In this document: piece after piece, positions 13,166-16,996 of the stretch
How the letters are laid out: each line of letters opens with the position of its first letter
Numbering within the stretch: position 1 is the stretch's first letter
From: Hyphomicrobiales bacterium
GTDB taxonomy: Bacteria > Pseudomonadota > Alphaproteobacteria > Rhizobiales > Devosiaceae
Direction of reading: 5' to 3'
Assembly: GCA_004144345.1 (NCBI GenBank)
Contig: SEEL01000014.1
Location: 17,626-81,625, forward strand
Length of the DNA stretch: 64,000 nucleotides
The notes under the pieces: model-generated
Told to the model about the DNA's origin: nothing
Database searches by the model: none
What the model saw: the letters and a program-made list of their open reading frames with translations, nothing else
Made by a program: the position numbers and the translations under genes

Positions 13166-14458
13166 ATGAATCGCATCGCCACCGCCCTTGTCCTGACCCT
13201 GCTCGCGAGCCCGGCCCTCGCCGACGCTGTCACCTACAAGGGCACCATTGGCGATCTGCCCATTGTGCTGGAGCTGTCGGAAGAGCCGCATGCCGGCAAT
13301 GCCGATCTCTTCGGCCGTTACTTCTACGTCAACAAGGGCGTCGATATCCCGTTCCACGCCGCGCCTGCCGCCCGCTCGCGCTTCGGCCTCGCCGAGGAAG
13401 TCGCCTGCTCGGCGGACACCAACAACTGCCCCGGCGCGCAGGACGACCCGCCCGGCCCCGCCCCGCTGGGCGCCAGATGGGCGCTCGAGATCTCCCGCGA
13501 CGGCCAATCGCTCGAAGGCCATTTCGCCATCAACGGCCGCAACCGTCCGGTGAGGCTCGAACGTGTCGGCACCCGCTTGTTCGATCCCGCCGGCGGCACG
13601 ATCGCCCTGCCCGAATTCGCCAACAGCCTATATTGGGACGGCACGCTGACGCCGGAGACGTCGCCCTACGACTATCTCAAGGTCACCGCGGTCAAGCTTG
13701 CCGCCAGCGACCCCGTCGAGATGAACGGCGCGAGCTTCCACTACGTTACCGATCCCAGAACGAAGTTCCGGTATCCGCGTCTGCTCGATATGTCCGGCTA
13801 CGACATCGCGCCCGCCAATGCATGGCTCGAACGGCGCCACTGGATCATGACACTCGATGCCCTCTCATGCATGGCGCAGCAGTATCAGGGCTTCGGCTGG
13901 AACGGTTACAACTACGACGCCGGTACCTTGGGCTGGTACGACGAGGAGCAGGTCACAGTCGACTACGCCTCGTCCACCGTCCTGAGCTGGACCCAGTCGG
14001 GCAGCCTGTCCTGCGGCGGCGCCCATCCCTACAACCACATCGACATCTACAATCTCGATCTGGTGGACGGCGTGCCGCTCGATCTGAGCCGCATCTTCCG
14101 CGGCTGGCGGCCGCTCAACTATGACGGTACGCCCGCCGATCTCGAAACCGCCCGCGCCAACCCGCGCGACTATCAGTGGCTCCCCGACGCCGAGCTCGCG
14201 ACCTTCGTCAAGGAACACCGCCGCACCGACGCGGAGATGGACGTCCCGAGCGGCGAGGATGGCTGCCCCATCGACGAGTTGATCGACACCAACCTCGCCA
14301 TCGGCTTCAAGGACGGTGACCGCGTGGTCTTCACGCTCGGCGGCCTGCCGCATGTCATCTTCGCCTGCACCGCCGTGCTCTACGAAACGCCGATCCTCGA
14401 TATCGCGTGGCTGCTCACCAACGAGGCCGAGAACTACTTCCCCAGCCTCGCCGATTGA
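13166..14458 (+). CDS. Secreted hypothetical protein
   Basis: RBS GGGAG; signal peptide MNRIATALVLTLLASPALA; several Cys; host-like codons. Confidence 0.75.
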   Translation: MNRIATALVLTLLASPALADAVTYKGTIGDLPIVLELSEEPHAGNADLFGRYFYVNKGVDIPFHAAPAARSRFGLAEEVACSADTNNCPGAQDDPPGPAPLGARWALEISRDGQSLEGHFAINGRNRPVRLERVGTRLFDPAGGTIALPEFANSLYWDGTLTPETSPYDYLKVTAVKLAASDPVEMNGASFHYVTDPRTKFRYPRLLDMSGYDIAPANAWLERRHWIMTLDALSCMAQQYQGFGWNGYNYDAGTLGWYDEEQVTVDYASSTVLSWTQSGSLSCGGAHPYNHIDIYNLDLVDGVPLDLSRIFRGWRPLNYDGTPADLETARANPRDYQWLPDAELATFVKEHRRTDAEMDVPSGEDGCPIDELIDTNLAIGFKDGDRVVFTLGGLPHVIFACTAVLYETPILDIAWLLTNEAENYFPSLAD

Positions 14459-14558
14459 GGTCTGCCCGGGCCGCCGCTCTGCAGCCCTGCGGGGCGCCGT
14501 GTTGATCGGCACCATCCATTCGTGTTCATCATAGCGGATTGGTTGGGAGGCTATTTCA

Positions 14559-15017
14559 TTGGCAACGCCGGACGACGCCCATCTGCTGCGCGATCTGACG
14601 CGCAATCTGCTGCTGGCCGGTCGCCAGTGGCGCAAGATCGGCCGCCAGGTCGCGGCGCGGCACGGCGTTTCCGAGGCGGCTTCCGCCCCGCTGCTGTGGA
14701 TCGAGCGGCTCGGCGAGAATGTCCGTCAGAACGCCCTGGCCGATGCCATCGGCATCGAGGGCGCCTCGCTGGTCCGCCTGCTCGACGAGCTTCAGACCCA
14801 TGGTTTCATCACCCGCGTCCCCGACCCCGCCGACCGCCGCGCCAACGCCGTGAACCTCACCGACGCCGGCTGGACCGTGGTGCATGAGGTGAACGATGCC
14901 CTCAACGAACTCCGCCTCGAGGTCTTCGCGGGCGTCAGCCGCAAGGACATCGAGGCGACGCTGAGGGTTTTCGACGCCATCGACGATGCAGCGGGCGCCG
15001 TTGACGAGACCCCGTGA
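14559..15017 (+). CDS. MarR family (SlyA-like) transcriptional regulator
   Basis: LADAIGIEGASLVRLLDEL...GFITRVPDPADRRANAVNLT. Confidence 0.9.
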   Translation: MATPDDAHLLRDLTRNLLLAGRQWRKIGRQVAARHGVSEAASAPLLWIERLGENVRQNALADAIGIEGASLVRLLDELQTHGFITRVPDPADRRANAVNLTDAGWTVVHEVNDALNELRLEVFAGVSRKDIEATLRVFDAIDDAAGAVDETP

Positions 15018-15050
15018 CAAGCGTTTCGCGCTGGTATACAGACTCCGCCC

Positions 15051-15128
15051 ATGAACCTCGTCCGCGCCAGCTTTACGTATTGGTATTTTAGCAACGGAAG
15101 CCGCTGGCAGCCGGAGGGGCGCGTTTGA
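15051..15128 (+). CDS. aroG leader peptide MNLVRASFTYWYFSNGSRWQPEGRV
   Basis: 25-codon ORF with clustered F-T-Y-W-Y-F plus a later W, between a promoter-like sequence and an intrinsic terminator upstream of DAHP synthase. Confidence 0.75.
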   Translation: MNLVRASFTYWYFSNGSRWQPEGRV

Positions 15129-15158
15129 TCTGACACCATCAAACAGACAAGTTTCCCG

Positions 15159-15186
15159 AAGCCGCCAGCGACTGGCGGCTTTTTTT
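15159..15186 (+). terminator. Attenuator terminator upstream of aroG
   Basis: AAGCCGCCAG-CGA-CTGGCGGCTT followed by a T run; its 5' arm (15164-15170) can alternatively pair with 15102-15108. Confidence 0.8.
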
Positions 15187-15222
15187 GTCGCCGGTCCCCT
15201 AAAAATCCAGAGGACCAAGACC

Positions 15223-16293
15223 ATGCTCAAGACCACCGACGACCTGCGCATCAAGGACATCCGCGAGCTCCGAACGCCCGCCGAGGTGATGCACGAATTC
15301 CCGCGCACCGATGCCGCCACCCGCACCGTGCTCGCCTCGCGTCACGCCATCCACAACGTCCTGCATGGCGCCGATGACCGGCTTGTCGTCGTGGTCGGCC
15401 CCTGCTCCATCCACGACCCCGTCGCTGCCATCGACTACGCCAAACGCCTCGCGCCGCTCCGCGAAAAACTCGGCGACCGGCTCGAAATCGTCATGCGCGT
15501 CTATTTCGAAAAGCCCCGCACCACGGTCGGCTGGAAGGGCCTCATCAACGACCCCGATCTCGATGGCAGCTTCAAGATCGACAATGGCCTGCGCGTCGCG
15601 CGCAGCCTGCTGCTCGAGATCGCCAATCTCGGCCTCCCCGCCGGCTGCGAATTCCTCGACATGACGACGCCGCAATATTTCGCCGACCTTGTCGCCTGGG
15701 GCGCCATCGGCGCGCGCACCACCGAGAGCCAGGTGCATCGCGAGCTCGCCTCCGGCCTTTCCTGCCCGGTCGGCTTCAAGAATGGCACCGACGGCAATGT
15801 CCGGATCGCCCTCGACGCGGTGAAATCCGCCAGCCAGCCGCACCATTTCCTCGCCGTCACCAAGGACGGGCGCTCCGCCATCGCCTCCACCTCAGGCAAT
15901 GACGATTGCCACATCATCCTGCGCGGCGGCAAAACCACGAACTACGACGCGCCCAGTGTCGAGGCCGCGGCAGCCGAATCGGCCAAGGCGGGCATCGCGC
16001 CCGCCATCATGATCGATGCGAGCCATGCCAATTCGTCCAAGAAGCCCGAGAACCAGCCGCTCGTCCTCGCCGATGTCGGCGCCCAGATCGCGGCCGGTGA
16101 TCGTCGCATCGTCGGCGTCATGATCGAGAGCAACATCGTCGCCGGACGCCAGGATCTCGAACCCGGCAAGGGACTGGTCTACGGCCAGTCCATCACCGAT
16201 GGCTGCATCGGCTGGGACACGACGGTTGAAACCCTCGAACTGCTCGCCAACGCCGTCGCCGCCCGCCGCGAATCCGCCCAGCAGGTCGCGTAA
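15223..16293 (+). CDS. aroG: 3-deoxy-7-phosphoheptulonate (DAHP) synthase, class I alpha
   Basis: GPCSIHD, RVYFEKPRTTVGWKGLINDP, IGARTTESQVHRELASGLSCPVGFKN, DASHANS, GQSITDGCIGW. Confidence 0.97.
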   Translation: MLKTTDDLRIKDIRELRTPAEVMHEFPRTDAATRTVLASRHAIHNVLHGADDRLVVVVGPCSIHDPVAAIDYAKRLAPLREKLGDRLEIVMRVYFEKPRTTVGWKGLINDPDLDGSFKIDNGLRVARSLLLEIANLGLPAGCEFLDMTTPQYFADLVAWGAIGARTTESQVHRELASGLSCPVGFKNGTDGNVRIALDAVKSASQPHHFLAVTKDGRSAIASTSGNDDCHIILRGGKTTNYDAPSVEAAAAESAKAGIAPAIMIDASHANSSKKPENQPLVLADVGAQIAAGDRRIVGVMIESNIVAGRQDLEPGKGLVYGQSITDGCIGWDTTVETLELLANAVAARRESAQQVA

Positions 16294-16312
16294 CGGCAGC
16301 CAGCCCTCAGGT

Positions 16313-16337
16313 TCCTCCCCCGCGTGGCGGGGGAGGA
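16313..16337. repeat. REP-like palindrome
   Basis: TCCTCCCCCGC-GTG-GCGGGGGAGGA, perfect 11-bp stem. Confidence 0.7.
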
Positions 16338-16382
16338 CGCGAGCCACAGCCACGGAGCCGAACCGCGCGCGCCGCGTTTCAC

Positions 16383-16411
16383 TTGACCCTTGCTCTCCCC
16401 CGGCCCACATT
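16383..16411 (+). promoter_or_regulatory. Putative sigma70 promoter giving a leaderless pgsA transcript
   Basis: TTGACC-N17-CACATT with the ATG A 7 nt downstream; no SD sequence. Confidence 0.45.
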
Positions 16412-16417
16412 CCCACC

Positions 16418-16996
16418 ATGTACATACCCGCCTCGCTCCGCTCGCTGCCCAATCAGCTCACCCTCGCGCGCATCGCCGCCATCCCGGTGATCTGCCTTCT
16501 TCTGGTCGCGCAGGCGGACTGGCTGGGTTGGATCGCCCTCGTCCTCTACGTCGTCGCAGCGGTGACCGACTGGCTCGATGGCTTCCTCGCCCGCCGCATG
16601 AATCTCTACTCCGATCTCGGCAAGATGCTCGATCCGATCGCCGACAAGCTGCTCGTCAGTGCCCTGCTGGTCACTTTCGCGTGGACCCGCGATTTCTCCG
16701 GCTGGGAACTGATCCCGGCCATCGCCATCCTGATGCGCGAGATTTTCGTTTCCGGTTTGCGCGAATTCCTCGGCAACAAATCCGTCTCCGTGCCCGTTAC
16801 CTTCCTAGCCAAATGGAAAACAACGGTACAACTCGTGGCCCTCTTCTTCGTCATCGTCGACGGCCTCTTGCCGAGCTTCGGCTTTATATCCGGCGCCCTG
16901 ATGTGGCTCGCCGCCGCTTTGACCGTCTGGACGGGGTGGCAGTACCTGTCGTCAGCCTGGCTGCATTTCGACAGCCCGCCGACCCCGTCGGAATGA
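16418..16996 (+). CDS. pgsA: CDP-diacylglycerol--glycerol-3-phosphate 3-phosphatidyltransferase
   Basis: LPNQLTLARI, TDWLDGFLARR....SDLGKMLDPIADK, REIFVSGLRE, AKWKTT.Q. Confidence 0.97.
   Translation: MYIPASLRSLPNQLTLARIAAIPVICLLLVAQADWLGWIALVLYVVAAVTDWLDGFLARRMNLYSDLGKMLDPIADKLLVSALLVTFAWTRDFSGWELIPAIAILMREIFVSGLREFLGNKSVSVPVTFLAKWKTTVQLVALFFVIVDGLLPSFGFISGALMWLAAALTVWTGWQYLSSAWLHFDSPPTPSE

What the first reader, a model, noticed from the sequence alone, without database searches (positions are those of the whole stretch)
15051..15190. Ribosome-mediated attenuator of aroG that could read Phe, Tyr and Trp together
Seen: a 25-codon leader MNLVRASFTYWYFSNGSRWQPEGRV, in which five of six consecutive codons are aromatic (TTT ACG TAT TGG TAT TTT), using AT-rich codons atypical of this genome. 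It is followed by a strong intrinsic terminator (15159-15186). CGCTGGC (15102-15108), just downstream of the aromatic cluster, is perfectly complementary to the terminator 5' arm GCCAGCG (15164-15170), giving an antiterminator; an extra 7-bp hairpin (15123-15144) covers the stop. Established: DAHP synthase is the entry step for all three aromatic amino acids, and leader-peptide attenuation is known for trp and pheA operons. Inference: one leader integrates starvation for any of the three end products. I know no characterised alphaproteobacterial example, though in-silico reports may exist.
Basis: partly seen in the sequence, partly recalled or inferred. Interest (0 to 1): 0.75.

Follow-up and report, generated by a model that had tools for sequence, protein, structure and literature searches.

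The report
Aromatic leader-peptide attenuator before aroG
A 25-codon mini-gene packed with Phe, Tyr and Trp codons, followed by a switchable transcription stop signal, sits in front of a Devosia gene for the first enzyme of aromatic amino-acid synthesis; it is a textbook kind of switch, real and widely conserved, but apparently uncatalogued for this gene in Proteobacteria.

Summary
Window 15051-15128 encodes MNLVRASFTYWYFSNGSRWQPEGRV. A strong intrinsic terminator (15158-15186) follows, then a class I (AroG-like) DAHP synthase gene at 15223.

- An anti-antiterminator: region 1 (15061-15071) pairs with region 2 (15103-15115).
- A much longer antiterminator: 15102-15120 with 15151-15170, -29.7 kcal/mol.
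- A conserved promoter ending 9 nt before the ATG, so the leader mRNA is probably leaderless.

The device precedes every AroG-clade gene I found with intact upstream DNA in Devosia. It also occurs in Mesorhizobium, Bradyrhizobium, Methylosinus, Xanthomonadales and Burkholderiales. Aromatic codons interchange (F<->Y) between species, while downstream only the RNA sequence, not the reading frame, is kept. The 1:2 and 3:4 stems covary.

It is the only small ORF in this genome that combines such an aromatic run with a terminator.

Joint Phe/Tyr/Trp sensing is plausible but unproven. The one tested analogue (C. glutamicum aroR-aroF) responded to Phe only.

This scan has already reported the same device on other DNA: 85 notes in at least 84 genomes. 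I rate it a new member of a known kind, of moderate interest.

The parts
15014..15019 (+). -35-like hexamer GTGACA; it overlaps the stop codon of the upstream MarR/SlyA-like gene
   Evidence: GTGACA(A) is conserved at this spacing in nearly all alphaproteobacterial leaders. A promoter role is inferred, not shown.
15036..15041 (+). -10-like hexamer ATACAG (CTACAA / CTATAT in relatives), ending 9 nt before the leader ATG
   Evidence: The hexamer is conserved, and the gap to the ATG is 7-9 nt in the Devosia, Bradyrhizobium and Mesorhizobium leaders measured. No Shine-Dalgarno precedes the ATG. A leaderless or near-leaderless mRNA is therefore inferred.
15051..15128 (+). Leader peptide ORF, 25 codons plus TGA
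   Evidence: It is conserved in 22 of 22 genus loci with upstream DNA and in other genera.
15072..15089 (+). Regulatory codon block TTT ACG TAT TGG TAT TTT (F T Y W Y F), lying in the loop between regions 1 and 2
   Evidence: The block varies between species only among aromatic codons or at the non-aromatic slot (SFTYWYF, TYFYWYF, AYSYWYF, TFFYWYF and so on).
15061..15071 (+). Region 1 (TCCGCGCCAGC), the anti-antiterminator arm that pairs with region 2
   Evidence: It appears in the MFE fold. There are compensatory changes in the genus (CG->UA) and across 69 sequences (for example GC:22 / CG:21 / AU:3 / UA:3 at one pair).
15102..15120 (+). Region 2 (CGCTGGCAGCCGGAGGGGC), which pairs either with region 1 or with region 3 and the bases before it
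   Evidence: The core CTGGC(G)G is conserved across classes and mimics the terminator 3' arm.
15123..15144 (+). 7-bp hairpin containing the leader stop codon
   Evidence: It is kept, with changed pairs, in many Devosia (GTTTGA/TCAAAC versus GTTCG/CGAAC) but not all. Its role is unknown; it may be a pause or spacer element.
15151..15171 (+). Region 3: the terminator 5' arm (15158-15168) plus flanking bases that pair with region 2 in the antiterminator
   Evidence: When region 1 is masked and region 4 is not yet made, 15102-15120 pairs with 15151-15170 at -29.7 kcal/mol. The core pairs form in 84% of cells of 69 sequences.
15172..15186 (+). Region 4: the terminator 3' arm CTGGCGGC plus the U-tract (7 T at 15180-15186)
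   Evidence: The 3:4 stem is 98.5% paired in 69 sequences, with GC<->AU covariation at one pair.
15187..15194 (+). GTCGCCGG, complementary to the terminator 3' arm (a possible 4:5 hairpin in read-through RNA)
   Evidence: RNAalifold pairs it with 15172-15179. It is present in all Devosia, Xanthomonas, Methylosinus and some others. It is absent in Bradyrhizobium, Mesorhizobium and Burkholderia. Function is unresolved.
15223..16293 (+). Regulated gene: class I (type I-alpha, AroG-like) DAHP synthase, 356 aa
   Evidence: Pfam DAHP_synth_1, 2.1e-94. NCBIfam aroFGH 530 bits and AroG equivalog 556 bits. The closest solved structure is the E. coli Phe-sensitive AroG.

Best explanation
This is a classical ribosome-mediated (leader-peptide) transcription attenuator controlling the Devosia class I DAHP synthase gene aroG.

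**Proposed sequence of events**
1. Transcription starts a few bases before, or at, the leader ATG (inferred).
2. A ribosome translates the 25-codon leader while RNA polymerase proceeds.
3. If charged tRNA-Phe, tRNA-Tyr and tRNA-Trp are plentiful, the ribosome runs to the stop codon at 15126. Region 2 is then covered, or is re-paired with region 1 behind the ribosome. The terminator (3:4, 15158-15182 plus U7) forms, and transcription ends at about 15186.
4. If any of these charged tRNAs is scarce, the ribosome stalls in the block at 15072-15089. This block lies between regions 1 and 2, so a stalled ribosome masks or sterically blocks region 1.
5. Region 2 is then free to pair with region 3 as region 3 emerges. 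This antiterminator (-29.7 kcal/mol) forms before region 4 exists. The terminator cannot form and aroG is transcribed.
6. With no translation at all, 1:2 and 3:4 both form and transcription terminates.

**Shown:** the ORF, the three alternative helices, their conservation and covariation, and the constant linkage to aroG.

**Inferred:** translation of the leader, the start site, stalling, and which of the three amino acids actually matter.
For: - **Anatomy.** ORF, terminator and alternative folds are all present.
- **Linkage within Devosia.** All 22 Devosia-genus AroG loci with upstream DNA carry the leader.
- **Linkage across the order.** A covariance model built from these loci found 10 further true hits in other genera, each directly upstream of an AroG orthologue.
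- **Wider spread.** 50 of the 80 closest AroG loci in public genomes have an aromatic leader. 48 of those also have a terminator at about +100-115 nt.
- **Conservation pattern.** Aromatic residues are kept with F<->Y exchanges. In one Devosia subgroup a 1-nt insertion shifts the frame after the block and moves the stop, yet the nucleotide sequence is kept. Selection downstream of the block is therefore on RNA, not peptide.
- **Four-region repeat.** R1 CCGCCA / R2 CTGGCGG / R3 CCGCCAG / R4 CTGGCGG recurs throughout the family.
- **Covariation of 1:2 + 3:4.** 97 double-change cells against 35 +/- 4 in shuffles (0/500). Covariation score 0.169 against at most 0.080 for slid partners.
- **Support for 2:3.** The core pairs in 84% of cells. 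R3 C->U is matched by R2 G->A in two distant lineages, L079 and L091.
- **Uniqueness.** It is the only small ORF in the genome with this aromatic run plus a terminator.
- **Precedent.** A tested precedent exists for the same gene function: C. glutamicum aroR-aroF (PMC11802643).
Against: - Translation of the leader, the termination site and the amino-acid response are therefore all untested.
- **No Shine-Dalgarno before the leader ATG.** The model needs leaderless or near-leaderless initiation, which is inferred only from promoter spacing.
- **Thermodynamics do not decide it.** At equilibrium the terminator remains the MFE even when region 1 is masked, so the switch must be kinetic.
- **Modest per-sequence signal.** Antiterminator energy is only moderately better than shuffles in this GC-rich RNA (median z = -1.86).
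- **The 2:3 core is almost invariant**, so covariation support for it is weak.
- **The A3 alignment was fitted to the 1:2 + 3:4 structure**, which favours it.
- **Only one Trp codon is conserved.** In C. glutamicum, Tyr availability had no effect despite a Tyr codon.
Confidence: 0.87

Rival explanations
1. The terminator simply ends transcription of the upstream MarR/SlyA-like gene, and the aromatic ORF is a chance reading frame. On this view aroG has its own unregulated promoter downstream.
For: A MarR-family gene ends at 15017 on the same strand with no terminator of its own. GC-rich genomes are full of spurious small ORFs.
Against: - The leader and terminator are present where the upstream gene is different (L002, L006, L013, L017, other genera).
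- A conserved promoter-like element lies between the MarR-like gene and the leader.
- Aromatic codons are conserved across classes.
- No promoter-like site lies between the terminator and aroG.
- Only 36 nt separate the U-tract from the aroG start.
Confidence: 0.03
2. The element is a real attenuator but effectively senses only one or two of the three amino acids (for example Phe, or Phe plus Tyr). The single Trp codon would then contribute little, so it is not a three-input integrator.
For: - In C. glutamicum the F-Y-F leader aroR responded to Phe limitation but not to Tyr.
- Characterised attenuators carry several tandem regulatory codons (trpL, pheL, hisL; textbook knowledge, not checked here).
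- Oxalobacteraceae members of this family have no Trp codon at all.
- The enzyme is closest to the Phe-sensitive AroG.
Against: - The single Trp codon is kept in the core [FY]-W-[YF]-F in all but one (L091) of the alphaproteobacterial leaders examined. It is also kept in Xanthomonadales and Burkholderia, which argues that it is selected.
- TGG sits in the middle of the block, where a stalled ribosome would cover region 1.
Confidence: 0.35
3. Besides, or instead of, cis attenuation, the terminated ~135-nt leader RNA or its peptide acts in trans. The precedent I have in mind is the trp attenuator products rnTrpL/peTrpL of Sinorhizobium meliloti (from my own knowledge, not checked here).
For: There is very high nucleotide conservation of the whole leader within Devosia and recognisable homology across classes. 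An abundant terminated transcript is expected from any attenuator.
Against: - The peptide's C-terminal half is not conserved in frame, which argues against a peptide function.
- All conserved RNA segments are accounted for by the four pairing regions.
- No data bear on any target.
Confidence: 0.08
4. The switch also gates translation. On this view GTCGCCGG (15187-15194) pairs with the terminator 3' arm in read-through RNA, or otherwise with the aroG ribosome-binding region, giving a dual transcription/translation control.
For: - GTCGCCGG is invariant in Devosia and complementary to 15172-15179.
- GGTCC (15195-15199) can pair with GGACC (15211-15215) next to the SD.
- In other Devosia, GTCGCCGG..CTC pairs with GAGCCGACGAC just before the aroG ATG.
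Against: - Constrained folds of 11 Devosia leaders show no consistent difference in SD/AUG accessibility between the terminator and antiterminator states. For the window it is 0.34 versus 0.42.
- The element is missing in Bradyrhizobium, Mesorhizobium and Burkholderia members.
Confidence: 0.12

Closest known systems
Corynebacterium glutamicum aroR-aroF attenuator (Neshat et al. 2014, as summarised in PMC11802643)
   Same: A leader peptide with aromatic codons, plus attenuation, upstream of a DAHP synthase gene. Read-through rises on aromatic amino-acid limitation. From my memory of that paper, its attenuators are leaderless transcripts, as inferred here.
   Different: - Actinobacterium versus Proteobacteria.
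- The motif there is only F-Y-F with no Trp. Here there are five aromatic codons including Trp.
- Sequence homology was not tested here.
- In C. glutamicum only Phe was shown to act.
Enterobacterial pheL-pheA (Rfam Phe_leader RF01859) and trpL-trpEDCBA attenuators
   Same: The same four-region logic: 1:2 anti-antiterminator, 2:3 antiterminator, 3:4 terminator. The regulatory codons lie at or next to region 1.
   Different: - Each of those reads one amino acid and controls a terminal branch, not the common entry step.
- There is no sequence-model membership: Phe_leader scores 19.8 bits against a gathering score of 55, and matches the terminator only.
Predicted attenuators before aroF-tyrA in Vibrio (Merino database, cited in PMC1173090) and RNA motifs before aroF/aroH in Shewanella (PMC2659441)
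   Same: In-silico proposals that DAHP synthase genes of Proteobacteria can be under attenuation.
   Different: Those concern Tyr- or Trp-type isoenzyme genes of Gammaproteobacteria. They give no description of an F/Y/W leader peptide, and were not compared with this element here.
The same aromatic leader family noted earlier in this scan (for example e1-4225699, e1-4056374, e1-5143560)
   Same: An aromatic-codon leader plus switchable terminator before aroG in Alpha-, Beta- and Gammaproteobacteria. My searches reproduce this spread.
   Different: Those are other genomes. This window is the Devosia member, with the variant region 2 GCTGGCAGCC and a +1-frame subgroup within the genus.

Membership tests
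Ribosome-mediated (leader-peptide) transcription attenuators | A short ORF enriched in codons for the end product(s) of the regulated pathway | tested here: met
   Five of six consecutive codons are aromatic. The enrichment is conserved across genera and is unique in the genome when combined with a terminator.
Ribosome-mediated (leader-peptide) transcription attenuators | An intrinsic terminator between the leader ORF and the structural gene | tested here: met
   11-bp stem plus U7 at 15158-15186. It was found in 80 of the 83 leaders examined across the family.
Ribosome-mediated (leader-peptide) transcription attenuators | An antiterminator helix mutually exclusive with the terminator | tested here: met
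   15102-15120 pairs with 15151-15170 at -29.7 kcal/mol when region 4 is absent. The core pairs in 84% of cells. There are two independent R2/R3 compensatory changes. Covariation is weak because the core is nearly invariant.
Ribosome-mediated (leader-peptide) transcription attenuators | An anti-antiterminator (1:2) that a ribosome stalled at the regulatory codons would disrupt | tested here: met
   15061-15071 pairs with 15103-15115, with the aromatic block in the loop. Compensatory changes are seen.
Ribosome-mediated (leader-peptide) transcription attenuators | The leader is translated, and read-through responds to charged-tRNA supply | not testable with these tools
Rfam Phe_leader (RF01859) | Score at or above the gathering threshold of the covariance model | tested here: not met
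   19.8 bits against 55; only the terminator aligns.
Rfam BcKCsr7 (RF02884) | Score at or above gathering, and the same genomic context | tested here: not met
   18.1 bits against 59. A true member (161.9 bits, L041) encodes an Arg-rich leader upstream of argD.
T-box / other known aromatic RNA switches in Rfam | A match to any Rfam family at gathering score | tested here: not met
   No family reaches its gathering score in 14000-16500.
C. glutamicum aroR-type attenuator | Sequence or structure homology to aroR | not tested
   No aroR sequence was at hand. The relation is by function and design only.

The most novel reading that the evidence does not exclude
One probably leaderless 25-codon leader works as a three-input OR gate: starvation for Phe, Tyr or Trp each opens aroG. 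It would belong to a single ancient leader-aroG module that has stayed attached to this AroG clade while spreading patchily through Alpha-, Beta- and Gammaproteobacteria. Lineages would retune the inputs by changing the codon mix, for example by dropping Trp in Oxalobacteraceae.
Probability: 0.3. Interest if true: 0.55.

Novelty: new member of a known kind. Interest (0 to 1): 0.4.

Why it matters
DAHP synthase sets the carbon flow into all three aromatic amino acids. In Alphaproteobacteria its transcriptional control is, to my knowledge, poorly described.

- **Control logic.** Here a second, AroG-type enzyme sits beside the housekeeping class II enzyme. It would be switched on only when charged aromatic tRNAs run short. 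This uses no protein regulator such as the E. coli repressors TyrR and TrpR.
- **Annotation.** The family is widespread (Devosia, Bradyrhizobium, Mesorhizobium, Xanthomonas, Stenotrophomonas, Burkholderia). It is absent from Rfam and from the papers I could search. A covariance model and one set of reporter experiments would fill an annotation gap in many genomes.
- **Mechanism.** It offers a natural system for asking how a single leader weighs three different amino acids.
- **Engineering.** It is also relevant to engineering aromatic-compound production in these hosts.

Tried and rejected
1. **Rfam BcKCsr7 as the same RNA.** The window gave a weak full-length match (18 bits). A genuine BcKCsr7 locus turned out to be an Arg-rich (RRRR) leader before argD. 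Rejected.
2. **Translation gating through GTCGCCGG (15187-15194) and the SD.** Constrained folds showed no state-dependent SD exposure, and the element is not universal. Left as a weak rival.
3. **Equilibrium folding as proof of the switch.** The terminator stays the MFE even with region 1 masked. Only co-transcriptional folding, with region 4 absent, gives the antiterminator.
4. **Shuffle test of antiterminator energy per sequence.** This gave only a moderate signal (median z = -1.86), because any GC-rich RNA pairs with the GC-rich arm.
5. **A second aromatic small ORF in the genome.** MVFYWYYEPAREGGLRSP on contig C19, before a GntR-type gene, has no terminator. It has no significant nucleotide similarity to the leader either. 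Treated as chance.
6. **A genome-wide screen for other single-amino-acid leaders.** The output was noise. One WW candidate lay inside or antisense to coding sequence.
7. **The class II DAHP synthase gene.** It has no leader: the upstream spacer is about 65 nt.
9. **Nine literature searches.** These found no description of this proteobacterial AroG leader.

Full report
**What is there**

Window 15051-15128 (+) is an ATG-initiated ORF of 25 codons, MNLVRASFTYWYFSNGSRWQPEGRV. Codons 8-13 (15072-15089) read TTT ACG TAT TGG TAT TTT.

- **Terminator.** An 11-pair hairpin (15158-15168 / 15172-15182, loop CGA) is followed by seven T (15180-15186). It is the only terminator-like site in 14400-16500.
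- **Downstream gene.** A 356-aa class I DAHP synthase begins 36 nt after the U-tract, at 15223 (Pfam DAHP_synth_1, 2e-94). It passes the NCBIfam aroFGH cut-off. It is closest to the AroG equivalog and to the solved E. coli Phe-sensitive AroG.
- **Upstream gene.** A MarR/SlyA-like gene ends at 15017.
- **Organism.** The nearest public AroG loci are Devosia species.
- **Second enzyme.** The genome also carries a class II DAHP synthase on another contig, with no leader. The attenuated gene is therefore a second, extra entry enzyme.

**Alternative RNA structures**

The full leader folds into three elements:
- a long 1:2 stem (15061-15071 with 15103-15115), whose loop holds the aromatic codons;
- a small hairpin over the stop codon (15123-15144);
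- the terminator.

If the RNA 5' of a ribosome stalled in the aromatic block is removed, and region 4 is not yet transcribed, the fold changes. Bases 15102-15120 pair with 15151-15170 at -29.7 kcal/mol. It consumes the terminator's 5' arm.

Once region 4 is present, the terminator is again the equilibrium structure. The choice must therefore be kinetic, as in classical attenuators.

A ribosome with its A site on 15072-15081 would cover region 1. Further into the block it sits between regions 1 and 2. At the stop codon it covers 15111 onward, and 1:2 can re-form behind it. These footprint statements are inference from standard ribosome dimensions.

**Is it more than chance?**

The genome has 46,346 ATG ORFs of 10-45 codons. 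Five have at least five aromatic residues in a window of six. Only this one is followed by a terminator.

TTT makes up 14% of Phe codons in the window's genes. It fills both Phe codons here and 76% of Phe codons in 42 alphaproteobacterial leaders. TAT is not unusual in this genome.

**Comparative evidence**

- AroG was found in 21 of 24 other genomes of the genus. All 22 loci with upstream DNA carry the leader.
- The aromatic block changes only by exchange among aromatic codons or at one non-aromatic slot.
- In one Devosia subgroup an extra base after the block shifts the frame and moves the stop, while the nucleotide sequence stays almost identical. Selection downstream of the block therefore acts on RNA rather than peptide.
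- A covariance model built from these sequences (R1) hit 14 of 151 genomes sampled across the order. Besides the window's own genome there were 13 hits. Ten are true leaders, each directly upstream of an AroG orthologue. One is a different Tyr/Phe leader before tyrS. Two are terminator-only matches.
- Among the 80 closest AroG loci in 185,579 species genomes, 50 have an aromatic leader, and 48 of those also have a terminator about 100-115 nt from the ATG. Taxa include Devosia, Mesorhizobium, Bradyrhizobium, Methylosinus, Neorhizobium and Roseovarius. They also include Xanthomonas, Stenotrophomonas, Dyella and Luteimonas. Among Burkholderiales they include Burkholderia, Paraburkholderia, Caballeronia, Janthinobacterium and Massilia.
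- Erwinia and most of the more distant loci have none.
- The Devosia model scores Xanthomonadales leaders at 55-68 bits and Burkholderia leaders at 30-50 bits. The RNA itself is therefore homologous across classes.

Throughout the family the four regions are variations on CCGCCA(G) / CTGGCGG / CCGCCAG / CTGGCGG.

Pair counts on 69 sequences (A3):

| Structure | Cells paired | Double-change cells | Covariation score |
|---|---|---|---|
| 1:2 + 3:4 | 86.7% | 97, against 35 +/- 4 in shuffles (0/500) | 0.169, against at most 0.080 for slid partners |
| 2:3 core | 83.8% | few (core nearly invariant) | 0.066, against 0.043 in shuffles (1/500) |

One 1:2 pair reads GC:22 / CG:21 / AU:3 / UA:3. A3 was fitted to the 1:2 + 3:4 structure, which favours it.

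The best evidence for 2:3 is that a C->U change in R3 is matched by a G->A change in R2 in two distant lineages.

**Promoter and start**

Alphaproteobacterial members share GTGACA(A), about 16 nt, then CTAYAN. In the leaders measured (Devosia, Bradyrhizobium, Mesorhizobium) this ends 7-9 nt before the leader ATG. No Shine-Dalgarno is present. Xanthomonadales show TGnGCTATCAnT at the same distance.

I infer a leaderless or nearly leaderless leader mRNA. This removes the objection that the ORF lacks a ribosome-binding site, but it remains untested.

**What is sensed**

All but one (Neorhizobium, L091) of the alphaproteobacterial leaders seen keep the core [FY]-W-[YF]-F, with one Trp codon and several Phe/Tyr codons. 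Burkholderia has KFYFYFFW. Oxalobacteraceae have no Trp codon.

Joint reading of the three amino acids is thus plausible and apparently tunable by lineage. It remains inference. In the only tested analogue, C. glutamicum aroR (F-Y-F), Phe limitation raised aroF transcription but Tyr availability had no effect (PMC11802643).

**Comparison with what is known**

The mechanism is the textbook one (trpL, pheL).
- For DAHP synthase genes it has been shown in C. glutamicum.
- It has been predicted in silico for aroF-tyrA in Vibrio (PMC1173090) and for aroF/aroH in Shewanella (PMC2659441).
- No Rfam family reaches threshold here.
- The tempting weak match to BcKCsr7 is a false lead. That RNA is an Arg-rich leader before argD.
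- Nine full-text searches found no description of this proteobacterial AroG leader.

This scan's own notes already hold 85 findings of the same device in at least 84 other genomes. My independent searches agree with their claim of spread across Alpha-, Beta- and Gammaproteobacteria.

**Limits**

Translation, termination site and response are all untested. The idea that the conserved GTCGCCGG after the U-tract adds a translational layer was not supported.

**Verdict**

This is a real, well-formed leader-peptide attenuator of aroG: a new (uncatalogued) member of a known kind. Confidence in the mechanism is about 0.87. Confidence that all three amino acids are effective inputs is about 0.3-0.5.

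Noticed in passing
L035 (genome G161, another genus of the same order), about 1509-1680 in the orientation of the match: A different small ORF, MIKTAATFVYFYYVTSIPAAA, plus a terminator lies directly upstream of a tyrosine--tRNA ligase gene (TIGR00234, 353 bits). It is a candidate Tyr/Phe leader-peptide attenuator of tyrS, analogous to pheM-pheST.
   Followed up: partly
L041 (genome G242), the Rfam BcKCsr7 match (161.9 bits): The Burkholderia 'sRNA' BcKCsr7 (Bc_KC_sr7 / nc5U30 / RIT34) contains the ORF MNRFLSALRRRRSPLRPDAAGSSRTRA. A terminator follows, and it sits just upstream of acetylornithine transaminase (argD, NF002985, 817 bits). It looks like an Arg-codon leader-peptide attenuator rather than a trans-acting sRNA.
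   Followed up: partly
window 15187-15194 (and 15195-15199 / 15211-15215): GTCGCCGG right after the U-tract is invariant in Devosia and complementary to the terminator 3' arm. GGTCC/GGACC can enclose the aroG Shine-Dalgarno. A similar post-terminator complement occurs in Xanthomonas, Stenotrophomonas and Methylosinus, but not in Bradyrhizobium, Mesorhizobium or Burkholderia. Its purpose is unknown.
   Followed up: partly
window 14559-15017: A MarR/SlyA-like regulator gene ends 34 nt before the leader. Its stop codon lies inside the -35-like GTGACA. This synteny recurs in many but not all Devosia loci. Whether the regulator acts on the aroG leader promoter is unknown.
   Followed up: no
genome contig C19, minus strand, about 45227 in plus-strand coordinates (outside the window): A second aromatic-rich small ORF, MVFYWYYEPAREGGLRSP, lies upstream of a GntR-type regulator gene. 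It has no terminator and no significant nucleotide similarity to the aroG leader. It is probably chance, although its C-terminus resembles Xanthomonadales aroG leaders.
   Followed up: partly
Devosia loci L004, L005, L007-L010 versus L001-L003, L006: Within one genus the leader exists in two frame variants. They differ by one inserted base after the aromatic block. The peptide tails are different (…SNGSRWQPEGRV versus …SSRCPLAAGGVRSI) and the stop is shifted, but the RNA sequence is nearly identical.
   Followed up: yes
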